This document shows, one piece after another, positions 1,331-19,430 of a stretch of DNA of 64,000 bases. The stretch comes from Savitreella phatthalungensis (lineage: Eukaryota): NCBI GenBank assembly GCA_051599415.1, contig AP039709.1:124001-188000 (forward strand), read 5' to 3'. Under the pieces are notes generated by a model that saw nothing but the letters and a program-made list of their open reading frames with translations, ran no database searches and was not told the DNA's origin. A program made the translations under genes and the position numbers. Positions within the stretch are counted from its first letter, which is position 1; every line of letters begins with the position of its first letter.

Positions 1331-3352
1331 ATGAGACACCTTATACCAATATTGTTCCTCATACACACGGCGTCTGCCGAGGACAATGTCGATATAGGTG
1401 ATACTGGCTGCTTCGCATTCGTCCTGTCCTCGGAGCCGCGAGGATTCATCGATTCCCTCCATCCTTCCCTTCGAGATGGGGTCGACCGGCACGCACACAG
1501 ACACGACATCATCTCCGGAGTATATCTACCGCCGAAAGCTCCGAACGCCCTCCGAAGAAGCCTCAGCATGCAGCGTGGTCTTGTCATCTCCCCAGACGAT
1601 AAGCTGCACCCGCACGCCGACCTCGTTCAAGCAGATGCGCCATGGCATCTCACCAGATCCTCCACCTTCGATCGTCTCAGGAACATCGACGACCCAGAGC
1701 TCGCACATCTTCCCTACACTTGGGACAGTGACTGGGCAGGCCAAGGCACGTCGATCTACCTCGTCGACTCAGGCGGCGACTGCTCCTACGATTGGTTCGG
1801 CAACAGATGCGGCATCACAGATATCCCCTGGCCAGGAGAAAACGGCGTCATCCGCACTCGAGATCTCGCTGGTCACGGCACGGCCGTCATGGGCGCCTGC
1901 TGCTCCAGCGTACACGGACACGCTCGGCGCTCCCCACTGCAACCGCTCAGAATTTACGATACCCACATGGAAGGCACCATCCTGCGCTTTGTCGACGTCG
2001 CCAGCTGGATCTTCGAGCAACTCAACCAGAAAATCTCACGTCGAGGCTACCACTCAACTATCCTACTCCTGCCTTCAGGAACGATAGTGCGCAGCGACGT
2101 TCTAGATAGACTCTGCGAGCGGCTCGACAGGGCCGGAGTGCTGCTCGTCACGTCCGCCGGTAACGATGCAATCGATTCCTGTCGAACGTCTCCAGGGCAT
2201 CTCGACTTTGTCGTCACCGTCGGCGCCACCAATCCAGACGATCAGATCATGATCGGTACAGGCTTCGGCCCATGTGTCAATATCCTCGCACCAGGCCAAC
2301 TCATTAGAACCTCGGGATTTCGATCGCTACACAGCAAGTGGTCCGATCTTCGCCATCCTCGCAGCGAATCTGTATGGAGCGGCACTAGCATGGCTGCAGG
2401 TGTCGCTGCTGGTGCTATCGCCGTTTTCCTCGACCCTCTCCAAAGACTCGTCAGCCACCAGCGAGCACACCACAACAGTCGCTCTGTCGCAGAACTCGTC
2501 CACACCTACCTCGCAGTCTCGTCCGCCCAGCTCGACGGTGACGTTCTCCCTCCGCCTCCCGACGAGCGCGACCAACCTCGGTTCCTCCCGCCACAGACAG
2601 TCCGAATGCGGCACAAAGATTTTAGGACGCGCGACTCCGACTGGATCACCGTCCTAGACACCCCCGGTGTGCCCGAGCAGATGCTTGCGATCGATCAGCA
2701 CGCTCGCGAACGTCAGATCCATCCGCGCGCACACGGCAAGCAAAAACGACCTGAGGAAGCGCCAGGCGAAGGGAGCAACCCACGCGAGCCCTTGCCAACC
2801 CTCACACGAGGCAGGGTCTGGTCGCATCGAGGCAAAGCTAGACTACGTCATATCAACGACTGGCCAGTGTCATCCCTCAAATCGATGGAGACTATCTACA
2901 AGCGTTGGCAAGAGGGTATTCTCGAGCACACGACAAGGCTATTCATCCATGCATCCACCAAGCATCCTTTCGCCCCTTCTCCGGAGCAACTCACAGACAA
3001 TGAGCCGCATCACGCATCAGACGCTCACGAAAGCGACGATCCCATGGACGAAGATGACCAGACACACTACCACCAGCGCCCTCACCATCTGGTCCACCAC
3101 GAATCGCATCCATACTTTGATCCCGTTCTCGTTGACCAGACCTGTAACGACGACCCAGACTTTGTCTCTCTGATGGACCGCGCTCTCTGTGCCCTCGTTC
3201 TTGAGAACTCCGCAAAAGCCAGATCTACTTCCTACCGGATCCGTAAAGGCTTGATGCATCGCACGACCATGATGCCGATCGGCAGCTGGCCAACACGCAG
3301 ACCTCCAGGCAGACCTCGGAGGACTCCAATCGCCGTTACACCAACAGCCTGA
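1331..3352 (+). CDS. Secreted subtilisin-like (S8, proteinase K-like) protease, array copy 2
   Basis: Signal peptide MRHLIPILFLIHTASA; mature start QADAPWHL; triad VDSG (D146), GHGT (H182), GTSMA (S353); oxyanion SAGN; about 300-aa C-terminal extension. Confidence 0.92.
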   Translation: MRHLIPILFLIHTASAEDNVDIGDTGCFAFVLSSEPRGFIDSLHPSLRDGVDRHAHRHDIISGVYLPPKAPNALRRSLSMQRGLVISPDDKLHPHADLVQADAPWHLTRSSTFDRLRNIDDPELAHLPYTWDSDWAGQGTSIYLVDSGGDCSYDWFGNRCGITDIPWPGENGVIRTRDLAGHGTAVMGACCSSVHGHARRSPLQPLRIYDTHMEGTILRFVDVASWIFEQLNQKISRRGYHSTILLLPSGTIVRSDVLDRLCERLDRAGVLLVTSAGNDAIDSCRTSPGHLDFVVTVGATNPDDQIMIGTGFGPCVNILAPGQLIRTSGFRSLHSKWSDLRHPRSESVWSGTSMAAGVAAGAIAVFLDPLQRLVSHQRAHHNSRSVAELVHTYLAVSSAQLDGDVLPPPPDERDQPRFLPPQTVRMRHKDFRTRDSDWITVLDTPGVPEQMLAIDQHARERQIHPRAHGKQKRPEEAPGEGSNPREPLPTLTRGRVWSHRGKARLRHINDWPVSSLKSMETIYKRWQEGILEHTTRLFIHASTKHPFAPSPEQLTDNEPHHASDAHESDDPMDEDDQTHYHQRPHHLVHHESHPYFDPVLVDQTCNDDPDFVSLMDRALCALVLENSAKARSTSYRIRKGLMHRTTMMPIGSWPTRRPPGRPRRTPIAVTPTA

Positions 3353-3588
3353 CCATTCCTAACCTCATCATCCGGACCATCACGGGATGCGTGGCATAGC
3401 ACACAACTCCGCTTATCTCGCGTGTCAACCGAAAACGATGCTCATGACTACCAATTCATTCGCGTTCCTATCACTCCGTCGGTCGGCCAGGCACCTCGGA
3501 ACGTTGTTCAGAAACACTCGTCATAGTGTTGTAATGAACGCATGCAGTCTCATTCATCGACCGCCGTCTCCATCACTCATTACTCATC

Positions 3589-5289
3589 ATGCTCCTTCTT
3601 GTCCTTGTCAATCTCCATCAAATGCTATGGTCGAGGATGCTGGCAGAGGCTCGCGAAGGAGCAGCTTCTGACGATCGATTCATTCTCACTCATGCGCAAA
3701 CGCCCTTTCTCGACCTCGTCCACCCATCCCTTCGACATCATGTCCAAACACACACGCAGGATTTCCAAGACGCCATCTCCGGCATCTACCTCCCGAGAAA
3801 CACCACACCATCTCTCCTCGCAAGTCTCAAAGCCCACAGAGGCTTCCTCACGGCCGATAACCCGCAACTAAGGCCAGCAGCCATGGAAATGCAAGTAGAT
3901 GCTTCATGGGCCCTCAAGCGAATCTCTCGGCCAGGTCGATTAAACGTGCCCAGCCCAGCGAGGACCTTCTTCCAATACGCCTTCGACGATGAATGGCAGG
4001 GTGCAGATGCGGTTATCTGGGTGATCGACTCCGGTGTCGACTCCGGTAATCCCGACTTTGGCGAGCGCGTCCTCGTCTCTCCGAGGTCACAGCACAAGCA
4101 GATGCTCGCACGGACGGACTCAACAGGTCATGGTACAGCGGTTGCAGGCGCCTCCGCGTCCACACGCCACGGCATCGCCCGATCAGCGTGGATTAGACCA
4201 GTCAAAGTCCTCGACAACTACTTGCGCGGCAACGTCCTTGACGTCATCTCCCTCGTCACACCCATCCGGACAGCAGGCTGGAAGCTGGCGAACAAGCGCA
4301 ACGCCGTCCAAATCGTCGTCTTCGCAGCCACCGTTCCCATCAATCCGGCACTCGACGTCGCCATCACCAAATTAGATCATTCAGGATTCGTCGTCGTCGT
4401 ACCAGCCTCGAACGAACCCATCGACGCATGCATCCTCTCTCCATCTCACCTGAACGAGGTTATCACCGTCGCAGGCACAACGACCAAAGACACGCTTCTT
4501 GCGGGCAGCGGCTATGGCGCCTGTGTCGACATCCTCGCGCCCGGTCAGAGCGTCAGAGTACCCGGCATCCACGGACTCCCGGCCAGACCTTTCGCCCTCA
4601 ATAGACCAGTGCCTCGAGCACAGTCCGTCTGGACAGGTACGAGTATTGCAGCAGGCTTCGTCGCTGGCGCTATCGCCATCTACCTCAACCCTCTGCGCAG
4701 GCTTTCAACCAGGCCAGAGCCGAACTACGGCGTGTCACTCTCGACCCTCGCACGATCCTACCTCGAAGTCTCCTCGATCGAGCTCCCCGACCAGATCGTC
4801 TCAGAAGGCCTGCCAACTTCCCAAGATATTCATTACATGCTCAGAGGATCCGGATATTCGCATTTGAGCCCTGACGGCCGTATGCGGAACGACATGCCGG
4901 ACAGCGAAGCCTACGTCGTCGGTCGAGTCTTCCCTGAGGATGCCCTCAAGCAGGCTGCAGACTTATACACCGCTTGGGCATCTCGCGCTAGACACTCCAC
5001 CACACGCCGCTTCCTCCAGACCTCTCTCAAACACAACTTTGAGCCGCTTGAGATCCCCCGCGACCCAGCAGCCCAAAGAGCCTACTGCGATGAGCAAGCA
5101 GACTTCAACGAAAGCGTCGAAAGCGCTCTGTGCGAGCTCGACCGCGAGCGAGCAGAACGCGCGCACGAGCGCGAACGCAAACGTCCACGCCCATCAGAGC
5201 AAGCTCATCAGTTACTCCACGCCAGGCCGCCCATCCCGCCTGAGTACAGACCCGTCAGACCAAAGCTCATCAGGCCCCAGCATTCCTAG
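3589..5289 (+). CDS. Secreted subtilisin-like (S8) protease, array copy 3
   Basis: Hydrophobic N-terminus; QVDASWAL; IDSG, GHGT, PASN and GTSIAAG motifs; shared C-terminal domain. Start codon uncertain. Confidence 0.9.
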   Translation: MLLLVLVNLHQMLWSRMLAEAREGAASDDRFILTHAQTPFLDLVHPSLRHHVQTHTQDFQDAISGIYLPRNTTPSLLASLKAHRGFLTADNPQLRPAAMEMQVDASWALKRISRPGRLNVPSPARTFFQYAFDDEWQGADAVIWVIDSGVDSGNPDFGERVLVSPRSQHKQMLARTDSTGHGTAVAGASASTRHGIARSAWIRPVKVLDNYLRGNVLDVISLVTPIRTAGWKLANKRNAVQIVVFAATVPINPALDVAITKLDHSGFVVVVPASNEPIDACILSPSHLNEVITVAGTTTKDTLLAGSGYGACVDILAPGQSVRVPGIHGLPARPFALNRPVPRAQSVWTGTSIAAGFVAGAIAIYLNPLRRLSTRPEPNYGVSLSTLARSYLEVSSIELPDQIVSEGLPTSQDIHYMLRGSGYSHLSPDGRMRNDMPDSEAYVVGRVFPEDALKQAADLYTAWASRARHSTTRRFLQTSLKHNFEPLEIPRDPAAQRAYCDEQADFNESVESALCELDRERAERAHERERKRPRPSEQAHQLLHARPPIPPEYRPVRPKLIRPQHS

Positions 5290-5529
5290 TGACCCATACA
5301 TTGGTCACGAGCTCGCGTGTCCTTACATACAGGCCACACATGGCCATCCGACCTCGGACACCATGCCAGCAAACAGCCCGAGCAAATGTCAGGTGAGTCT
5401 TCCTAACGTGAGAGACCTCCTAAAATCCAACTCACTTGATATCAAACTCAACATCCGACCTTCATCCTGTCACTCATCCACTTCGTGCACTTCTCCAGCA
5501 CCTCAAGCATACCAAGCGAAAGTCTTCGA

Positions 5530-7386
5530 ATGCTATTCCTCGGGACAATCGCGCTCGCTCCGCTACTCAGCAGCAGCGTCATCGTCGTGGGAGCAAGCCG
5601 CCTGTCGGACGAGCGACCAAAGGGTCTTGGCCAATTCGCCGTCACTCACTCAACGCGACAATTACACTCGCTCATCCACCCAACTCTCCGCGAGAAGCTG
5701 TCAGACACCGCTCTAGACTACACAGAAGTCATCAGCGGTGTCTATCTGAGCGAATCGACGTCAGAGGGTTTGCTCCGTTCACTTAACCTCCACAGAGGTT
5801 TCACGACATCCCCAAACTCAAATCTCCAACCTTCTTCACGCCACAACCAGGTCGACGCATCCTGGGCGCTCCACAGGATGACAGGTGTCGAAAGGATCTC
5901 AAACCTCGAGCCAAATCCGGAGGGTCGTGACTTTGAGTATGTCTATGATTACGACTGGCTAGGTCATGAAGCGATCGCCTGGATCGTGGACTCCGGAGTT
6001 GACTGCAGCAACAGAGATTTTTTCTACCGAGCAAAGTGTCGTGAGAAATCGGCCCACAACGCGCTCAGATTACCGTACGACGTCAACGGCCACGGAACAG
6101 CAGTCGCGTCCGCCTTTGGCGCCAATCGCTACGGGATCGCGCGCAGATCTGTCATCCGGCCAGTGCGAATGTACAACGCTCGGATGGAAGCTGATATCCT
6201 CGACTTCATCAAGATCTCTCAGCAGCTGAGGAAATCAATCAACAGAGCTACCCAGAGCAGACCATCCATCTCACACCTCGTCCTCTTCCCCTCGTCCGCG
6301 TCGAGAAACGACGCGCTAGACCTGTCGTTCCTCTACCTCGATCGTGCTGGCATCATGTGCGTCACAACTGCATCGAATCAGCCAGTCGATGCGTGTACGC
6401 TGTCTCCAGCAAACCTAGACTTTGTCGTTACTGTCGGTGCAACGAACGTCGACGACCATCTTCTCGAGGGCACCGGGTACGGCCGATGTGTTGACATCCT
6501 GGCTCCAGGCGACCGAGTGCGCGTGAGCGGTTGGCATGCTCCGGATCCCGTGCAAGACCGGCATCCACGTCCGCCCGCTATCTACAGCGGGAGCTCAATC
6601 GCATCCGCGTTTGTCGCAGGCTACATCGCCACCTGGCTCCAACCCATCAAACACCTCTCCCTGATCCCACACCCGCACAGACAAGCCTCCGTCGCGACCC
6701 TCGTCAAAACCTACCTCGCAGTCTCATCCACAACGCTCAAAAATCAACTCATCCCCATCGACCCATCCACACACCAACCACAACCCCCATCAACCTTGAA
6801 CAGATTCATCATCCCACTCACCCGACCACAGTACTCCGAAGGCCAATCGTTCGGCCCCAAGATCGATCCTATGGCACTACGCGGCCAATACACCACGACC
6901 CTGACCCCACACCAATCGACCGCCTCGGATCCCAATCCCGACTTTGCCGGCTCATCAACAGGGACGACTAGAGCGTACAGCACGATGGACATGCACATGA
7001 CGTACTCGATCTGGGTGGAAGGTGTGATGGAGCAAACGACGCGGTCGTTTGTGCACGTGAGTGAACGCCAGCCGTTTGCTGCGAACGCTGATGGTGAGGA
7101 CGGTGAGGAGGAAGGATACCGGATGACTGGTGCGAGGACGCTAGCGATGCAGAGCTGTGAGGATCTCGCCAACTTCCAGAGAGACGTCGATCGACATCTC
7201 TGCGCACTCGTCACTCAAGCACTACACCAACCACCCTCACCATCACCACCATCGTACCTCCATCTCAGGCCAAGACCACCACACACCTTCCAGCAGTATC
7301 ACCACTTCGTTCCGACTTCAAGAGCCATGCACAAGAAACCGAGAATCCATCATCAGTCCCCCTCACCAGAACCAAGTATAGTATAG
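5530..7386 (+). CDS. Secreted subtilisin-like (S8) protease, array copy 4
   Basis: First in-frame ATG at 5530 gives a signal-like MLFLGTIALAPLLSSSVIVVGA. Motifs VDSG, GHGT, TASN and variant GSSIAS; shared C-terminal domain. Confidence 0.88.
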   Translation: MLFLGTIALAPLLSSSVIVVGASRLSDERPKGLGQFAVTHSTRQLHSLIHPTLREKLSDTALDYTEVISGVYLSESTSEGLLRSLNLHRGFTTSPNSNLQPSSRHNQVDASWALHRMTGVERISNLEPNPEGRDFEYVYDYDWLGHEAIAWIVDSGVDCSNRDFFYRAKCREKSAHNALRLPYDVNGHGTAVASAFGANRYGIARRSVIRPVRMYNARMEADILDFIKISQQLRKSINRATQSRPSISHLVLFPSSASRNDALDLSFLYLDRAGIMCVTTASNQPVDACTLSPANLDFVVTVGATNVDDHLLEGTGYGRCVDILAPGDRVRVSGWHAPDPVQDRHPRPPAIYSGSSIASAFVAGYIATWLQPIKHLSLIPHPHRQASVATLVKTYLAVSSTTLKNQLIPIDPSTHQPQPPSTLNRFIIPLTRPQYSEGQSFGPKIDPMALRGQYTTTLTPHQSTASDPNPDFAGSSTGTTRAYSTMDMHMTYSIWVEGVMEQTTRSFVHVSERQPFAANADGEDGEEEGYRMTGARTLAMQSCEDLANFQRDVDRHLCALVTQALHQPPSPSPPSYLHLRPRPPHTFQQYHHFVPTSRAMHKKPRIHHQSPSPEPSIV

Positions 7387-14799: not shown

Positions 14800-15453
14800 A
14801 TGATTGCTCGTAGACTGCCACGCAACACGAGCTCCCTGCTGGCGTCCTGCCGGCGCGGGTACGCTTCTGCAGCTGGCGGTGACAGCCAGCCGCCGATTGC
14901 GCTGTTTGGCGTTGACGGCACGTACGCGTCTGCCCTGTACACTGCGGCTGCGAAGAGCGGCTCGCTCGACGGTGTTGCCGGTGCGCTGTCGAAGCTGCAG
15001 CAGACGCTGAAGGGTGACGGGCGTGTGAGCGCGTTGATCGGGAACCCTACGCTGACGTCTGCCGACAAGTCTGTGATTGTGGAGGTACTGTCGAAGAGCG
15101 CAGGAGGCGACAAGAGCGTGACAAACCTGCTGAAGGTGATGGCGGAGAACAACAGGCTGGGTCTGCTGCCGCAGGTGTCGGAGGCATTCGCTCAGCTGAT
15201 CGCAGCCCAGAAGGGAGAGGTCGAGGTCACCATCACCTCAGCACAGCCACTCGAGTCAAAGACCATCAAGCAACTCGAGGGATCCATCGCAAAGTCCAAG
15301 TTCGCTGGAGCAGGAAAGAAGCTAAAGGTCCAGAACAAGGTCTCTCCAGAGATCCTAGGAGGACTCATCGTCGAGATCGGCGACAGGACGATCGACACCT
15401 CAGTCCGATCCAGGATCACTCGTCTCAACAAGATCCTGAACGAGGCTGTCTAA
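14800..15453 (+). CDS. ATP5: Mitochondrial ATP synthase OSCP subunit
   Basis: Arg-rich presequence; PPIALFGVDGTYASALY; ENNRL; ILGGLIVEIGDRTID. Confidence 0.95.
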   Translation: MIARRLPRNTSSLLASCRRGYASAAGGDSQPPIALFGVDGTYASALYTAAAKSGSLDGVAGALSKLQQTLKGDGRVSALIGNPTLTSADKSVIVEVLSKSAGGDKSVTNLLKVMAENNRLGLLPQVSEAFAQLIAAQKGEVEVTITSAQPLESKTIKQLEGSIAKSKFAGAGKKLKVQNKVSPEILGGLIVEIGDRTIDTSVRSRITRLNKILNEAV

Positions 15454-15634
15454 TCAGATGACTTCGGGGGTCGACGTTCAAGTCCTCCGACAACAGCAAC
15501 CATTACCATTCCAATTCTGCCAACCACATAAGAAGAGGTAGAGCGACGCAAGGAAAAGGGAATGGAAAGGTTGAAAATGAACAAGAATCCACATAAACAT
15601 CTCTGCTTCCACTGACTCTACCTGATTTTTCAAT

Positions 15635-18600
15635 CTATCCTTGACCGACGGCGTTCAAGTTCTGGGTGTTGACCATGATGCCGTCTGTAACTTCTTGAGC
15701 TAGCATGTTGAGGAGGTTGTTGTTGTTGCCGTTTGCTTGTGGTGCAGGTGTGAGGGTGAGTGCCTGGTTGAGTTCTGTCTGCTGTGCTTGCTGGACTTTC
15801 GCTAGTCCCTGAGCGGTCTGGGTACTCTGTACACCGGTATCCTGAGCGAGCTGCTGGTTTTGGGCACGAACTTGCTGGCCCTGGCGGATCAGACCCTGGA
15901 GGGCGTTGATGTCCCGATTGGCAGCACCAAAGTCACCACGGGCAAGGTCGGTCTGGATTGACCGAACGGTTGCCAACTCAGCCTGCTGAATCCGCAAGTT
16001 CTCCGCAATGCCAGCGCGCAGACGAGCTTGTGGATTGTTACCACCATTGCCAACCACTTGACCAGCAGCGCCGGCAAAGCTCGCCCGGTTGACGCCGTTG
16101 TTGACGTTGTTGAAGCCGTTGTTGACGTTGAAGCCATTTCCTCCACGATTCAATCCATTGTTGAAGTTCTGATTGTTGAAACCTGTGTTGAAGCCGTTGT
16201 TCACGTTGTTGAAGCCTGTGCCGGCTCGATTGAGTCCATTGTTGAAGTTCTGACCATTGAAACCCGTGTTCAGGTTCTGGTTGTTGAAGCCTCCATTGAC
16301 TCCATTGTTCAATCCGTTCAATCTTCCGACGTTGTTCAGGTTGTTGAAGTTGTTGTTCAACCCATTGCCGGTATTAAAGCCGTTGATGTTGTTCAGGTTT
16401 TGACCATTCAGGCCATTGTTGAAGCCATTCAGGTTGTTCAATCCGCGATTCAAGCCGTTGATGTTGTTGAAGTTCTGCCCATTCAAACCATTGAAGTTGT
16501 TCAGCCCACGGTTCAAGCCGTTGAAATTGTTTATTCCATTGATGTTGTTGAAGTTCTGCCCGTTCAGTCCGTTGTTCAGTCCGTTCAAGCCATTGAGGTT
16601 GTTCAGCCCGCGGTTCAAGCCGTTGATGTTGTTCAGGTTATTGAAGTTCTGCCCGTTCAGACCGTTGTTGTTCAATCCATTGAAGCCGTTTATGTTATTC
16701 AGCCCGCGGTTCAAACCATTGATGTTGTTCAGGTTGTTGAGGTTCTGGCCATTGAGACCGTTGTTAAGACCATTGACGTTGTTCAACCCGTTTAAACCGT
16801 TGGGACGCTGTGCATTGAGGCCATTGACGTTATTGAGACCATTCAGACCATTCAGGCGCTGAGCGTTGAGGCCATTGATATTGTTGATGGTCAGACCGGC
16901 GTTGTTGAGGCCATTGACGTTATTCAACCGTCCATTCAGGTTATTGACATTGTTGAGCCCAGCGGTATTGAGACCGTTGTTGACGCCGTTGAGGTTGTTC
17001 AAGCGGCCGTTCAGGTTGTTGACATTGTTTAACCCAGCGGTGTTCAGACCATTCAGACCATTGACATTGTTCAATCGCGCAGCGTTGGCACCGGTGTTGA
17101 GCCCGTTGATGCCACGATTGAGACCATTGATGTTGTTGTTATTGTTGAGGGCGTTGATGTTCGTTAGACGACCGTTCAGATTGTTGACGCCGTTCAGGCC
17201 TGCCGTATTGATGCCGTTGTTGACGCTATTGATGTTGTTCAATCGTCCGCTCAGAGCGTTCTGGTTATTTAACCCGGCAGTGTTGAGACCATTGCTGGCA
17301 CCATTGACGTTGTTCAGCCGTCCATTCAAGGTGTTTGGAGTGTTCAATCCTGCGGTGTTGAGACCGTTGTTGAGACGACCAGTGTTTTGGCCTCGGACGT
17401 TGTTCAGCTGGGAGTTCAGCCCGCCGTTAAAGCCAGTCGTTTGGCCTCGGACATTGTTCAGCTGGGAGTTCAGCCCACCGGTGGGACCAGCGTTGTTCAG
17501 GTTGATGTTGATGGCGTTCTGGCCAGATTGACCCCTTTGGGCAGCATTGAGGTTGTTGGAAAGACCGGGAGCAACACCGCGATTGGCTGTATTTAGCTGC
17601 GATGAAAGGCGTCCATCAGCCTGCTGTGCAGACTGCAAAGATGTTCGCACGGCGTTATTGCTGGCGGCCGTCGTTTGTCCGGTCGCGAGCTGACCAGTGC
17701 GGACAAGTGTATTCTGTTGACCGCCTCGAGCCTGTGTCGTGGTCTGCTGGCCGCGAAGCGCATTGACAGCATTACCAGCACGACTCTGTGAGCCCGGATT
17801 ATTGAGTTGCTGCGTGCCAGTGGTACCGCCTCGCGGTGCATTGATGCCAGCGGGAACTGTCGATTGGGCAAGATTGCTTCTGACACCTCCTGCGACCTGC
17901 TGGCGATTGACCGTCTGGGTTCTCTGCTGTCCAGTGAGCGTGTTGACGCCACCAAGAGAATTTCCGCCGGTCGTTGCCCCACGAGTTGTGGCCCCTGTCT
18001 GCTGGCCTGTGAGCCGCGTCGTTGTGAGCTGAGAGGTCTGAAGTCCATTCTGCCTGGTATTCGTGGACGCTAGACCGCCGGTATTGGGCGCTGTTCTAGG
18101 ACGGGCGACCTGTGATGCTTGCAGGTTTTGTGCGGCTTGAGTGCCAGTCTGAGTCCTTTGTGTGGTGCTTTGTCCTGCTAGACGACCTGCTGGTGCTGTA
18201 GCTGGGCGATTGTTTGTAGTAAGAGAAGTGGACAGTCCAGAAGTTCCGAGCGGGTTTGTCGGTCCTCTGGCACGCCCGCCGGCTGCAATGCCAGTATTTG
18301 TCGGCGTCGACGACCGCGCCGGAGCGCTGCTTCCGGCTGCAAGTGACGTCTGCAGGCCTGTTTGACGGTTGTTCTGGCCTGTCGGAGTCGTCTGTCGGAC
18401 ATTACCACGTGTAGCAGTGAGCGAGCCCTGTAAGCCCGTCTGACTACCGCTGGTTAGAGAGCCCTGTCGCGTTCGAGCAGGGGAACCTGTAGTCGTGGTC
18501 TGACGCGTTGTTGCTCGAGTGTTTGCCAATGACGTCTGCAGATTGTTTTGACGGGCACTCTGACCGCCCGATGCCGCGGGACTTCGGTTCTGGCCTGTCT

Positions 18601-19141
18601 GAGCTGCGGGACGAGTTGTCGCACGCGTGGCTCCAAGGTTCGTCTGCAAATTGTTCTGACGTGTATTTTGACCCGCCGCAGAAGCTGGGCGCGTAGTTGA
18701 ACCTGTCTGAGCGGTGGGCTGGCGCGTAATGGCACGAGTATTGGCGAGAGAACTCTGGAGACCTGTCTGGCGAGCACCTGTCTGGGTCGTCTGACGGGCC
18801 TGAGCAGCGAGTCCGCTCGTCTGACGCGTGGACGTAGTCTGACGTGTGGTCGCTCGCGTGTTGGCTTGTGAGGCTTGGAGACTTGTGCCGCGAGGTGTGG
18901 TTGCTGCTTGCCTGGTCTGGCTCGTCAACTGTCTCGTTGACTGACCCGTCGTTCCTCCAGTACGTACCGCGGAAGTCGAGGCGGTCGAACGCTGTGCCGG
19001 AGGAGTACTAGCCTTTCGTGATGTCGGCTGCTTTTGTGGAGTAGATTGCCTCTGTGGTGTGCTCGAGGCGGGCCGAGAAGCACGCTGTGCATCACCGAAA
19101 TTGCTAAGCAGGGCAAGAAGGAGCAAGCCTGGAAGGCGCAT
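15635..19141 (-). CDS. Secreted 1168-aa repetitive protein: Thr/Gln/Arg repeats, Asn/Gly/Leu repeats, C-terminal helical domain
   Basis: ATG at 19141 gives signal peptide MRLPGLLLLALLSNFGDA. 3.5-kb uninterrupted ORF with amino-acid-level repeats. Confidence 0.85.
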   Translation of the reverse strand: MRLPGLLLLALLSNFGDAQRASRPASSTPQRQSTPQKQPTSRKASTPPAQRSTASTSAVRTGGTTGQSTRQLTSQTRQAATTPRGTSLQASQANTRATTRQTTSTRQTSGLAAQARQTTQTGARQTGLQSSLANTRAITRQPTAQTGSTTRPASAAGQNTRQNNLQTNLGATRATTRPAAQTGQNRSPAASGGQSARQNNLQTSLANTRATTRQTTTTGSPARTRQGSLTSGSQTGLQGSLTATRGNVRQTTPTGQNNRQTGLQTSLAAGSSAPARSSTPTNTGIAAGGRARGPTNPLGTSGLSTSLTTNNRPATAPAGRLAGQSTTQRTQTGTQAAQNLQASQVARPRTAPNTGGLASTNTRQNGLQTSQLTTTRLTGQQTGATTRGATTGGNSLGGVNTLTGQQRTQTVNRQQVAGGVRSNLAQSTVPAGINAPRGGTTGTQQLNNPGSQSRAGNAVNALRGQQTTTQARGGQQNTLVRTGQLATGQTTAASNNAVRTSLQSAQQADGRLSSQLNTANRGVAPGLSNNLNAAQRGQSGQNAININLNNAGPTGGLNSQLNNVRGQTTGFNGGLNSQLNNVRGQNTGRLNNGLNTAGLNTPNTLNGRLNNVNGASNGLNTAGLNNQNALSGRLNNINSVNNGINTAGLNGVNNLNGRLTNINALNNNNNINGLNRGINGLNTGANAARLNNVNGLNGLNTAGLNNVNNLNGRLNNLNGVNNGLNTAGLNNVNNLNGRLNNVNGLNNAGLTINNINGLNAQRLNGLNGLNNVNGLNAQRPNGLNGLNNVNGLNNGLNGQNLNNLNNINGLNRGLNNINGFNGLNNNGLNGQNFNNLNNINGLNRGLNNLNGLNGLNNGLNGQNFNNINGINNFNGLNRGLNNFNGLNGQNFNNINGLNRGLNNLNGFNNGLNGQNLNNINGFNTGNGLNNNFNNLNNVGRLNGLNNGVNGGFNNQNLNTGFNGQNFNNGLNRAGTGFNNVNNGFNTGFNNQNFNNGLNRGGNGFNVNNGFNNVNNGVNRASFAGAAGQVVGNGGNNPQARLRAGIAENLRIQQAELATVRSIQTDLARGDFGAANRDINALQGLIRQGQQVRAQNQQLAQDTGVQSTQTAQGLAKVQQAQQTELNQALTLTPAPQANGNNNNLLNMLAQEVTDGIMVNTQNLNAVGQG

Positions 19142-19430
19142 CCTGTACAGTACAGATGAGAAGAAGCGGAGTGGAGATGGTGGTCCGACGACCTTGCACC
19201 ACAAGGCGTCTTATACGCCGATCGAGATCGATCGTTGACGGACATCTGAGACACGTCAAGACCGCACGGGATCCGTCGGAGCTTGTTACGGCCTGTAACA
19301 GGCGTTTGAAGTCACTCATCCAGCGCAAAGTTTGAGGATGTCATGAGACATAGCGGAAGATAGATTGGCATAAATGCTGTGAGAGGTTATGCATCGAAAC
19401 AAGTGCTGGGTGCCAGGCTGGCGAACTAGA

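What the first reader, a model, noticed from the sequence alone, without database searches (positions are those of the whole stretch)
16080..17560. About 490-aa Asn/Gly/Leu repeat in a secreted protein: functional amyloid or beta-solenoid candidate
Seen: near-continuous x-(L/I/V/F)-N triplet periodicity with higher-order units. A 25-aa repeat G(L/I)NTAGLN..N.L(N/S)GRL(N/T)N(V/I/L)N...N occurs 5 times, and a 25-32 aa repeat GLNGQN(L/F)NN..INGLNRGLNN about 5 times. The region has no Asp, Glu, Cys, Trp or Tyr and grades from Leu-rich to Phe-rich. Established: Asn ladders stabilise cross-beta and solenoid folds, but N-rich prion-like domains are mostly intracellular. Inference: an extracellular matrix, adhesion or ice-interacting fibre protein.
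Basis: partly seen in the sequence, partly recalled or inferred. Interest (0 to 1): 0.75.

Follow-up and report, generated by a model that had tools for sequence, protein, structure and literature searches.

The report
Secreted fungal Asn-Gly-Leu repeat protein
A fungal gene encodes a secreted, strongly positively charged protein whose middle 494 residues are an unusual asparagine-glycine-leucine repeat, conserved in sequence and free of N-glycosylation sites; it probably makes the protein stick to itself outside the cell, but its structure is unproven.

Summary
Window 16079-17560 (minus strand) encodes residues 528-1021 of a 1168-aa ORF (15635-19141). This stretch is 39% Asn, 18% Gly and 14% Leu, and lacks D, E, C, W, Y, H, K and M. 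Both higher-order repeats are present as described.

The protein has four parts:
- a signal-peptide-like N-terminus;
- a 508-aa Thr/Gln/Arg/Ser-rich basic region;
- the Asn repeat;
- a C-terminal four-helix bundle (AF2 pLDDT 86), shared with about 10 clusters of 153-248-aa secreted ascomycete "hypothetical proteins" that have no Pfam family.

New points:
- The real unit is [G/N]-Φ-N. 118 of 124 hydrophobic residues are followed by Asn, and NG occurs 56 times against GN twice.
- Repeat copies are saturated at synonymous sites (pS about 0.7) but keep the peptide (pN/pS 0-0.2).
- The whole protein has 1 N-x-S/T sequon, where 21±4 are expected.
- Net charge is about +73, almost all from Arg.
- An unrelated family (P0029, L001) carries a convergent, sequon-free NGΦN tail.

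AF2 finds no fold for the repeat (pLDDT 37), so the beta-solenoid and amyloid readings remain untested. No orthologue and no RNA data were found.

Best reading: a self-associating, unglycosylated extracellular low-complexity domain. It is a new variant of a known kind; interest is moderate.

The parts
15635..19141 (-). Whole CDS, 1168 aa plus stop (P0001). It is uninterrupted, and 19141 is the first ATG after the upstream in-frame stop.
   Evidence: Of 21 in-CDS differences to a 95-99% identical relative, 12 are synonymous and 9 are not, and there is a 6-nt in-frame deletion.
19085..19141 (-). Signal-peptide-like leader, residues 1-19 (MRLPGLLLLALLSNFGDAQ). Probable cleavage after G-D-A.
   Evidence: Read from the sequence. 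Mean Kyte-Doolittle hydropathy of residues 4-15 is 1.76. No signal-peptide predictor was available.
17561..19084 (-). Residues 20-527: basic low-complexity region rich in Thr, Ala, Gln, Gly, Arg and Ser. 30% Ser+Thr, net charge +52, with loose repeats such as NTRATTRQ and LQTSL. Probably O-mannosylated (inferred).
   Evidence: One N-x-S/T sequon against 9.9±2.6 expected.
16079..17560 (-). Residues 528-1021: the Asn/Gly/Leu repeat region of the finding, built of [G/N]-Φ-N units.
   Evidence: AF2 mean pLDDT 36.9.
16901..17365 (-). Residues 593-747: five copies of the 25-aa repeat GLNTAGLNNVNNLNGRLNNVNGxNN, at 593, 618, 643, 698 and 723. A 30-aa insert lies between copies 3 and 4.
   Evidence: Between copies pS is 0.71 and pN 0.146. 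TRF period 75.
16772..16873 (-). Residues 757-790: two copies of the 17-aa unit GLNAQRxNGLNGLNNVN.
   Evidence: TRF period 51.
16337..16759 (-). Residues 795-935: five units of 25-32 aa that start with GLNGQN[LF]NN. Four of them contain NGLNRGLNN.
   Evidence: pS 0.71 with pN 0.033, and pS 0.57 with pN 0. TRF period 96.
16079..16336 (-). Residues 936-1021: Phe-rich degenerate end of the repeat (GFNN, NFNN units).
   Evidence: TRF period 81.
15641..16033 (-). Residues 1037-1167: C-terminal up-down four-helix bundle. It belongs to an unnamed family of small secreted ascomycete proteins.
   Evidence: 10 representatives at E 1e-8 to 8e-4. 19 invariant columns. AF2 pLDDT 86.0, pTM 0.78, helices at model residues 23-53, 57-88, 94-114 and 120-153. 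Only generic helical-bundle structure matches.

Best explanation
The region is the central module of a real fungal gene for a secreted, cysteine-free, arginine-polycationic protein of 1168 aa. Its order is: signal peptide, a Ser/Thr/Gln/Arg-rich region that is probably O-glycosylated, a 494-aa [G/N]-Φ-N repeat, and a C-terminal four-helix bundle that otherwise occurs alone in small secreted ascomycete proteins.

Most likely mechanism: the Asn repeat is an unglycosylated, prion-like, self-associating low-complexity domain. Outside the cell it links molecules to one another through Asn side-chain hydrogen bonding and Leu/Phe contacts, forming a cross-beta or gel-like assembly. The Arg-rich part holds the protein on anionic wall or matrix polymers. 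The result is a multivalent, matrix- or surface-bound form of an otherwise soluble secreted domain.

Shown here: gene integrity, architecture, repeat anatomy, purifying selection on the repeat peptide, near-absence of sequons, and the fold and relatives of the C-terminal domain.

Inferred: secretion (from the leader and the relatives), O-glycosylation, self-association, cross-beta character, and binding to polyanions.
For: (1) It is coding.
- A 3.5-kb ORF runs from a signal-like leader to a domain with relatives.
- Differences to a 95-99% identical relative found in a second study are 12 synonymous to 9 non-synonymous. Two of the 21 lie in one codon of one contig and together read TTA>CTC, Leu>Leu.
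- The only indel seen is 6 nt, in frame.

(2) The peptide is constrained, not just the composition.
- Copies of the 25-aa unit differ at 52, 40 and 120 sites at codon positions 1, 2 and 3. pS is 0.71 and pN 0.146.
- The two shorter motifs give pN/pS of 0.05 and 0.
- Asn, Leu and Gly each use mixed codons, so this is not a DNA microsatellite.

(3) Sequon avoidance.
- There is 1 N-x-S/T in 1168 aa and 0 among the 194 Asn of the repeat. Region-wise shuffles expect 21.3±3.7, with a minimum of 9 in 5000.
- The reversed motif [ST]-x-N occurs 12 times.
- The Ser/Thr-rich N-terminal region has no Asn lattice that could explain this away, and it has 1 sequon against 9.9±2.6 expected; 0.0002 of shuffles reach that.
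- N-glycans inhibit peptide aggregation by steric hindrance (abstract of PMC10830103).

(4) Composition.
- Up to 41 Q/N per 80 aa.
- P 0.6% and G 18%. PMC8786786 (passages read) follows Rauscher 2006 in classing low P+G repeats, and G/N-rich proteins generally, as amyloid-type.

(5) Strict local grammar. NG occurs 56 times against GN twice (shuffles give 34.6±4.1), and Φ is followed by N in 118 of 124 cases.

(6) Convergence. An unrelated family (P0029, and L001 at 76% identity to it) ends in a 251-285-aa NGΦN tail with the same composition and 0 sequons, against 4.9±1.8 and 6.3±2.0 expected.

(7) Charge. Net charge is about +73, from R 81, K 3, D 7 and E 4.
Against: - AF2 on the repeat alone gives no confident structure: 441 of 494 residues are below pLDDT 50. 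That result is what a permanently disordered chain would give.
- No orthologue with this architecture was found; 10 short hits only; no close relative. Conservation of the repeat across species is therefore unknown.
- The N lattice breaks phase every 5 triplets or fewer, which argues against a long regular fibre.
- Within the repeat, the lack of sequons could follow simply from the lattice, because position +2 after an Asn is always Φ or N.
- The short motifs used for pN/pS were chosen because their peptides are conserved, which is ascertainment bias. Only the whole 25-aa unit (pN/pS 0.2) is free of this.
- There is no signal-peptide predictor result, no expression data, and no GPI signal, Cys or PIR-type motif that would show wall attachment.
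- 21 Arg in the repeat, +52 next to it, and probable O-mannan would all oppose tight packing.
Confidence: 0.4

Rival explanations
1. The repeat is a passive disordered spacer. It is a hydrophilic, permanently disordered stalk that grew by replication slippage. It only extends or tethers the C-terminal four-helix bundle, which carries the function, and no ordered self-assembly occurs.
For: - AF2 mean pLDDT is 36.9 with no stable secondary structure.
- Asn and Gly are disorder- and turn-promoting residues.
- Relatives of the C-terminal domain work without any repeat, at 153-248 aa.
- No orthologue conserves the repeat.
- In-frame indel polymorphism occurs.
- Secreted G/N-rich intrinsically disordered proteins are described in Glomeromycotina (PMC8786786, passages read).
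Against: - A spacer needs composition, not sequence. Here copies are saturated at synonymous sites yet keep the peptide (pN/pS 0-0.2) and a strict NG/ΦN grammar.
- 25% hydrophobic residues (124 of 494) and no acidic residue is unusual for a soluble spacer.
- Sequon avoidance is unexplained, because glycans would suit a spacer.
Confidence: 0.3
2. The protein is a polyanion-binding condensate former that works like honeybee MRJP-3. The Arg-only polycation and the Q/N-rich repeats bind extracellular nucleic acid or acidic polysaccharide (phosphomannan, pectin, bacterial surfaces) multivalently. They form granules or coacervates rather than amyloid.
For: - Net charge is about +73, with R 81 against K 3 and almost no acidic residues over roughly 1000 aa.
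- Q/N-rich repeats carry interspersed Arg, about one per repeat.
- MRJP-3 is a secreted protein with a 'prion-like' tandem repeat region of Q/N and positively charged residues, and it binds RNA and forms granules (PMC6509358: title, start of abstract and one figure legend read).
Against: - No nucleic-acid- or carbohydrate-binding domain was detected.
- There are no aromatic residues apart from Phe, and no RGG motifs.
- The hydrophobic ΦN grammar is not needed for charge-driven binding.
- This reading overlaps with the best explanation rather than excluding it.
Confidence: 0.15
3. The repeat is a monomeric beta-solenoid. Each 25-32-aa repeat forms one coil with stacked Asn ladders, giving a rigid rod that could present a flat surface for adhesion or for ice.
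For: - Repeat lengths of 25-32 aa lie in the range of known solenoid coils (recalled).
- There are five plus five imperfect copies with conserved Asn, Gly and aliphatic positions.
- The peptide is under purifying selection.
- Curli CsgA and FapC build beta-solenoid amyloid from imperfect repeats (PMC11005368, PMC12392863 and PMC12822426: search listing and start of abstracts only).
Against: - AF2 gives no solenoid (single sequence, so weak evidence).
- A hydrophobic spacing of 3 does not fit the in/out alternation of beta-strands (inference).
- No Pfam family matched at E<=1, so no match to any solenoid, ice-binding or ice-nucleation family in Pfam.
- Nothing points to ice: no Thr arrays, and the organism and its habitat are unknown.
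Confidence: 0.07
4. It is not a functional protein. The long ORF is a chance by-product of repetitive DNA, or a decaying gene.
For: - The opposite strand also carries long ORFs over the repeat: 16028-16795 and 16866-17531, + strand.
- The protein was not found in the protein collections.
- No listed sequencing run holding the stretch is on record as RNA.
Against: - The frame is open for 1168 codons, from a signal-like leader to a domain with 10 relatives and a confident fold.
- Synonymous changes are in excess both between strains and between repeat copies.
- The one indel seen is in frame.
Confidence: 0.02

Closest known systems
Secreted or GPI-anchored Gly/Asn-rich intrinsically disordered cell-surface proteins of Glomeromycotina (AGL-like IDPs; PMC8786786, passages read)
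   Same: - Fungal proteins selected for an ER signal peptide.
- Low complexity, with Asn at 12-39% (33-39% in Paraglomus), high Gly and almost no Pro.
- Predicted there, from composition only, to be of 'amyloid' type.
- No experimental structure or function.
   Different: - Homology was not tested, because those sequences were not at hand.
- Some of those proteins are GPI-anchored, and the paper's title calls these cell-surface proteins unique to Glomeromycotina.
- This protein has no GPI signal. It has a folded C-terminal four-helix bundle, a 508-aa Arg/Thr-rich region, a strict NG/ΦN grammar and 25-32-aa higher-order repeats.
- Relatives of its C-terminal domain are from Ascomycota.
Bacterial functional amyloids curli CsgA and Pseudomonas FapC
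   Same: Works-like comparison only. These are secreted proteins with several imperfect repeats of about 20-30 aa, rich in Gly, Asn and Gln, that stack into a cross-beta solenoid (PMC11005368, PMC12392863, PMC12822426: listing and start of abstracts; repeat consensus recalled).
   Different: - No Pfam family matched, so no sequence match to the curli or Fap families.
- This is a eukaryotic gene with no dedicated nucleator or secretion partners.
- The region is 494 aa rather than about 130.
- Hydrophobic residues are spaced by 3.
- AF2 gives no solenoid.
MRJP-3 tandem repeat region of honeybee royal jelly (PMC6509358)
   Same: A secreted protein with a Q/N-rich 'prion-like' tandem repeat region interspersed with positive charges. 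It self-associates into extracellular granules (figure legend and start of abstract read).
   Different: - It is an animal protein, and its repeats are short and follow a folded MRJP/yellow domain.
- Its ligand is RNA.
- There is no homology, and no ΦN hydrophobic grammar.
Q/N-rich yeast prion domains (Sup35, Ure2, Rnq1 type)
   Same: - Meets the Q/N-richness rule, with up to 41 Q/N per 80 aa.
- Asn-dominated, few charges and few Pro, with interspersed hydrophobic residues. These features are recalled as prion-promoting (Halfmann 2011; Toombs 2010; not read here).
   Different: - Those domains are cytoplasmic. This protein has a secretory leader and avoids sequons.
- This region has ordered higher-order repeats and 21 Arg.
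- There is no homology.
Unnamed family of small secreted ascomycete four-helix-bundle proteins (e.g. XP_007714698.1 Bipolaris zeicola, KAF4831432.1 Colletotrichum siamense, KAH9876509.1 Plenodomus biglobosus, TLD19196.1 Pyricularia sp.)
   Same: The C-terminal 131 aa belongs to this family: E 1e-8 to 8e-4, 29-38% identity, 19 invariant columns.
   Different: - Every relative found is 153-248 aa, made of a leader plus the bundle.
- None carries about 1000 aa of low-complexity sequence.
- All are annotated 'hypothetical' or 'uncharacterized', apart from one record named 'ATP binding', and none has a Pfam family.

Membership tests
Unnamed fungal small-secreted four-helix-bundle family (C-terminal domain only) | Significant sequence similarity over the whole domain, with the conserved motifs GIxxNLxxQxxE, GxxxRxxNQxxA, GLxxVxxAQxxE and GxxxNxxN | tested here: met
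   phmmer against 1.84 billion representatives gave 10 hits at E 9.9e-9 to 8.1e-4, covering query residues of about 10-154. The 11-sequence alignment has 19 invariant columns.
Unnamed fungal small-secreted four-helix-bundle family (C-terminal domain only) | N-terminal secretory leader, and a size of about 150-250 aa | tested here: not met
   A leader is present. However, the protein is 1168 aa, with about 1000 aa inserted between leader and domain. No other long form was found.
Q/N-rich prion-like domain (Michelitsch-Weissman type) | At least 30 Q+N in an 80-residue window (criterion recalled; the paper is listed in the references of PMC6509358) | tested here: met
   The maximum is 41 per 80 aa. 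381 windows reach 30 or more, spanning residues 575-1044.
Q/N-rich prion-like domain (Michelitsch-Weissman type) | Forms self-propagating amyloid | not testable with these tools
   No amyloid predictor was available. The complex predictor was unavailable. AF2 on the monomer gave mean pLDDT 36.9.
Curli CsgA/CsgB (Pfam Curlin_rpt) and other amyloid families in Pfam, such as the HET-s prion domain | Match to the family profile | tested here: not met
   hmmscan of the whole protein against Pfam-A at E<=1 returned 0 families.
Ice-binding (DUF3494-type) and bacterial ice-nucleation repeat proteins | Match to the family profile | tested here: not met
   0 Pfam families at E<=1. phmmer against PDB sequences gave 0 hits at E<=1.
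Ice-binding (DUF3494-type) and bacterial ice-nucleation repeat proteins | Confident beta-helix fold with a flat ice-binding face | tested here: inconclusive
   AF2 single-sequence mean pLDDT 36.9 and pTM 0.23. No alignment could be built because there are no homologues.
Collagen-like or polyproline-II (Gly-X-Y)n proteins | Gly at every third residue in long uninterrupted runs, with high Pro | tested here: not met
   Gly is 18% and Pro 0.6%. The recurring third residue is Asn, not Gly, and no phase persists for more than 5 triplets.
Glomeromycotina G/N-rich AGL-like IDPs (PMC8786786) | ER signal peptide plus a low-complexity sequence rich in Gly and Asn and poor in Pro | tested here: met
   Leader. 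N 39%, G 18%, P 0.6%, against N 12-39% (33-39% in Paraglomus) and P 0-6% in the paper (passage in section 19).
Glomeromycotina G/N-rich AGL-like IDPs (PMC8786786) | Sequence homology or a shared repeat unit; GPI anchor in some members | not tested
This protein's C-terminus is a hydrophilic folded domain (mean hydropathy of the last 20 aa is -0.3), so a GPI signal is unlikely.
HsbA / Mp1p lipid-binding helical bundle (PF12296) | Profile match, or a specific structural match | tested here: inconclusive
   No Pfam hit for the query or for the 10 relatives at E<=1. Structure searches list only generic and de novo four-helix bundles; a family that is not listed is not thereby excluded.

The most novel reading that the evidence does not exclude
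N-G-Φ-N, an Asn-Gly turn dipeptide flanked by an aliphatic residue and Asn, is a previously undescribed building block for extracellular self-assembling protein material.

It arose at least twice: in this fungal protein, and in the unrelated Cys-rich P0029/L001 family. It is kept free of N-glycans so that Asn side chains can ladder.

Because Asn-Gly is the fastest-deamidating dipeptide (recalled), the 56 NG sites could also act as a built-in chemical timer. Over time they would turn a +21 domain acidic and so mature or dissolve the material next to the +52 Arg-rich region.
Probability: 0.15. Interest if true: 0.8.

Novelty: new variant of a known kind. Interest (0 to 1): 0.5.

Why it matters
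Extracellular Asn-rich, prion-like sequences are rare. In eukaryotes they should be N-glycosylated by default. Here a secreted protein has 247 Asn and only one sequon, and its repeat peptide is conserved although the copies have diverged at synonymous sites. That makes it a clean natural test of whether eukaryotes use unglycosylated Asn-rich repeats as extracellular assembly modules, in the way bacteria use curli and Fap.

It would also give a first functional handle on an uncharacterised family of small secreted four-helix-bundle proteins found in plant-pathogenic ascomycetes.

If the repeat proves to be only a disordered spacer, the finding is an ordinary low-complexity expansion.

Tried and rejected
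- **Own genome:** none is held for this window, so paralogues and taxonomy could not be checked. From introns and neighbours the organism is a fungus. Relatives of the C-terminal domain point to Ascomycota.
- **Homologue searches at near length:** the C-terminal part gave 0 hits. The repeat gave 1 hit among 7997 scored candidates, P0029, by composition only.
- **Search for longer fused forms with alignment A1:** 0 hits among 8000 scored candidates. The tool itself calls this weak evidence.
- **ESM Atlas:** the C-terminal domain scored 0.78 and 0.75 ('hypothetical protein' and 'Lea domain protein', Ascomycota). Both are below the level where chance hits are common. The repeat gave no usable hit.
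- **PDB by sequence:** 0 hits for the whole protein. The A1 profile hit only a de novo design, at E 0.17.
- **Structure searches with the C-terminal model:** the best Foldseek E-value was 1.6e-2. VIA-align gave Z up to 18, but on designed and generic helical bundles, which is uninformative for helical bundles.
- **Metagenome loci:**
  - The A1 alignment was not searchable, because it has no conserved 7-10-column stretch.
  - The C-terminal protein alone gave 375 pattern matches but no relative.
  - The repeat segment gave 1 locus, L001, which belongs to the P0029 family and not to this one.
- **Sequencing runs:** no RNA holder is listed, so there is no evidence on expression either way. Parts of the gene without cover in runs X3-X5 are not interpreted.
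- **Earlier findings of this scan:** nothing by place or by sequence. The word search returned only prokaryotic Asn-rich surface proteins unrelated to this gene.
- **Kex2-type processing into peptides, as in Ustilago Rep1 (recalled):** rejected. There is no KR or RR, and only one RK.
- **Collagen or polyproline-II reading:** rejected.
- **LRR, pentapeptide and hexapeptide solenoid patterns:** considered by eye and rejected, because hydrophobic spacing is mostly 3.
- **Gene context:** uninformative. The neighbours are housekeeping genes, and no second copy of the domain or of an Asn-rich ORF lies in the window.
- **Literature searches:** among the listed titles and abstract starts, none describes this repeat or the C-terminal family. 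Only listings, one abstract and passages of two papers were read. This is not proof that nothing is in print.
Full report
**1. What is there**

The finding lies inside one uninterrupted ORF on the minus strand, 15635-19141. It encodes 1168 aa plus a stop (P0001).

The window is eukaryotic and fungal:
- No prokaryote genome is held for it.
- The gene just upstream on the same strand (DUF423) has a GTAAGT...CTGAC...AG intron.
- The neighbours are mitochondrial OSCP, a RING-variant protein, ORC4, a kinase, NifU, an ERT1/AcuK-type regulator, DUF2434 and three tandem subtilases.

None of these says anything about the function of this gene. No second copy of its domain, and no other Asn-rich ORF, lies in the window.

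**2.

Residues 528-1021 (window 16079-17560) have this composition: N 194 (39%), G 88, L 71, R 21, A 20, F 19, Q 18, T 18, V 18, I 16, S 8, P 3. Eight amino acids are absent altogether: D, E, C, W, Y, H, K and M.

The period of 3 is significant, at z=6.2 for Asn and z=6.9 for hydrophobic residues against 2000 shuffles.

- five 25-aa units at residues 593, 618, 643, 698 and 723;
- five GLNGQN[LF]NN units at 795, 827, 858, 885 and 910, of which four have the full motif.

There are also two 17-aa GLNAQRxNGLNGLNNVN units. The Leu-to-Phe gradient is real.

Two refinements:
- The true unit is [G/N]-Φ-N. 118 of 124 hydrophobic residues are followed by Asn, and they are preceded by G 61 times and by N 46 times. 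NG occurs 56 times and GN twice, where shuffles give 34.6±4.1 NG.
- The lattice never stays in one phase for more than 5 triplets. This rules out a collagen-like or polyproline-II-like continuous helix.

**3. The whole protein**

- Residues 1-19 look like a signal peptide (MRLPGLLLLALLSNFGDA|Q).
- Residues 20-527 are Thr/Ala/Gln/Gly/Arg/Ser-rich, with 30% Ser+Thr and a net charge of +52.
- The Asn repeat adds +21. The C-terminal part is neutral.

The protein has R 81, K 3, D 7, E 4, and no Cys, Trp, Tyr or His. Net charge is about +73. It has no KR or RR site and no hydrophobic C-terminus that could signal a GPI anchor.

**4. The C-terminal domain**

An exhaustive phmmer search of residues 1015-1168 against 1.84 billion representatives found 10 proteins at E 9.9e-9 to 8.1e-4, and none below 1e-10.
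- All are 153-248 aa and start with a hydrophobic leader.
- Those that carry names are 'hypothetical' or 'uncharacterized' proteins (one Colletotrichum record is named 'ATP binding') of Bipolaris, Colletotrichum, Plenodomus and Pyricularia.
- None has a Pfam family at E<=1 above chance level.

The alignment has 19 invariant columns. With this alignment, AlphaFold2 gives a confident up-down four-helix bundle: pLDDT 86.0, pTM 0.78.

Foldseek and VIA-align return only designed and generic bundles. The fold is therefore common and says nothing about function.

No long, fused relative was found (the second is weak evidence by the tool's own note). The protein itself is not in the collections searched.

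**5. Evidence that the repeat is a constrained coding sequence**

(a) Low-depth contigs from a second study (coded runs X3-X5, two samples) are 95-99% identical to pieces of the gene, including the repeat.
- Of 21 differences inside the CDS, 12 are synonymous and 9 are not.
- Two of the 21 sit in one codon of one contig and together leave Leu unchanged.
- The one indel is 6 nt, in frame.

(b) Between the five 25-aa copies, differences fall 52, 40 and 120 on codon positions 1, 2 and 3. pS is 0.71 and pN is 0.146. For the two short motifs pN/pS is 0.05 and 0.

The copies are therefore old, and the peptide has been kept, not only the composition. The short motifs were picked for their conservation, so only the value of 0.2 for the whole 25-aa unit is unbiased.

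**6. Sequon avoidance**

The 1168-aa protein has 247 Asn and 191 Ser+Thr but a single N-x-S/T (NRS at residue 185). Region-wise shuffles expect 21.3±3.7, and none of 5000 fell below 9. The reversed motif occurs 12 times.

Inside the repeat this could be a by-product of the lattice, because position +2 after an Asn is always Φ or N. The lattice-free Ser/Thr-rich N-terminal region shows the same avoidance, with 1 sequon against 9.9±2.6 expected.

This is what one expects of a protein that passes through the ER and must keep its Asn free. N-glycans are reported to block aggregation sterically (abstract of PMC10830103). Sequons are reported to be under dual selection in secretory proteins (PMC5562741; listing and start of abstract only).

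**7. A convergent case**

The only hit to the repeat, P0029 (706 aa), has an unrelated head with 13 Cys and no Pfam family. Its 251-aa tail is 31% N, 18% G and 15% L, with hydrophobic spacing of 3 in 53 of 79 gaps and 0 sequons against 4.9±1.8 expected.

A metagenome locus, L001, encodes a 76%-identical relative. Its tail is 285 aa and has 0 sequons against 6.3±2.0 expected.

The source organism of this family is unknown, and its N-terminus may be incomplete. I cannot say that it is secreted.

**8. Structure of the repeat**

AlphaFold2 on residues 528-1021 alone gives mean pLDDT 36.9 and pTM 0.23, with 441 of 494 residues below 50. This does not support a monomeric solenoid. It was a single-sequence run, because no homologues exist to build an alignment.

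The whole protein matches no Pfam family at E<=1 and no PDB sequence. The oligomer test could not be run.

**9. Interpretation**

Shown: a real, constrained gene for a modular, probably secreted, Arg-polycationic protein with a sequon-free [G/N]-Φ-N repeat.

Inferred: the repeat is a self-associating extracellular low-complexity module (cross-beta or gel), and the Arg-rich part binds anionic wall or matrix polymers (confidence 0.4).

Rivals:
- a passive disordered spacer (0.3);
- an MRJP-3-like polyanion-binding condensate former (0.15; PMC6509358, title, start of abstract and one figure legend read);
- a monomeric beta-solenoid or ice binder (0.07);
- not a functional gene (0.02).

The closest described proteins are the G/N-rich secreted disordered proteins of Glomeromycotina, with N up to 39% and predicted 'amyloid-type' from composition (PMC8786786, passages read). 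By mechanism, the closest analogues are curli and FapC (listings and starts of abstracts only).

**10. Limits**

- There is no signal-peptide or amyloid predictor result.
- There are no expression data: no RNA holder is listed, which is not evidence either way.
- No fungal genome collection could be searched, and no orthologue was found.

Statements on Asn-Gly type I' turns, Asn-Gly deamidation rates, prion-propensity rules, the curli consensus and the HET-s fold are recalled, not read here.

Noticed in passing
P0029 residues 456-706; L001 587-1396 (+): An unrelated family has a Cys-rich head with no Pfam match and ends in a 251-285-aa tail of NG[LIM]N triplets. The tail composition matches the repeat here (N 31-34%, G 17-18%, L 14-15%), with no charged residue and 0 N-x-S/T sequons. 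The two members are 76% identical. This looks like convergent use of the same repeat grammar.
   Followed up: partly
window 15641-16033 (-) and alignment A1: The invariant residues of the four-helix-bundle family are mostly polar and spaced i, i+3/4, i+7. They form Q-x-x-E on both helix 1 and helix 3, R-x-x-N-Q on helix 2 and N-x-x-N on helix 4, and each helix follows a conserved Gly. This suggests an internal two-helix duplication and a conserved polar site for a ligand or metal. Whether these residues face the core was not checked.
   Followed up: no
window 16079-17560 (-): The repeat contains 56 Asn-Gly dipeptides against 2 Gly-Asn. Asn-Gly is recalled as the most deamidation-prone dipeptide, so an extracellular protein of this kind should turn acidic with age unless structure or low pH protects it.
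   Followed up: no
window 15635-19141 (-): There is an extreme Arg-over-Lys bias (81 R, 3 K) with only 11 acidic residues, giving a net charge of about +73. No Cys, Trp, Tyr or His occurs in 1168 aa.
   Followed up: partly
window 1331-7386 (+): Three subtilase (Peptidase_S8) ORFs lie in tandem, at 1331-3352, 3589-5289 and 5485-7386. This looks like a local paralogue expansion.
   Followed up: no
window 16028-16795 and 16866-17531 (+): Long antisense ORFs of 255 and 221 aa, rich in Val/Glu/Gln or in Leu/Pro/Arg/Phe, run across the repeat. They are by-products of the repeat's codon pattern and not genes. The minus-strand frame is the one with the leader, the conserved domain and the synonymous excess.
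   Followed up: yes
window 15400-19400: Short low-depth contigs from a second study (coded runs X3-X5) are 95-99% identical to scattered parts of the gene and its 3' flank. They include a 6-nt in-frame deletion at 17174. A close relative or another strain therefore exists in other samples.
   Followed up: partly
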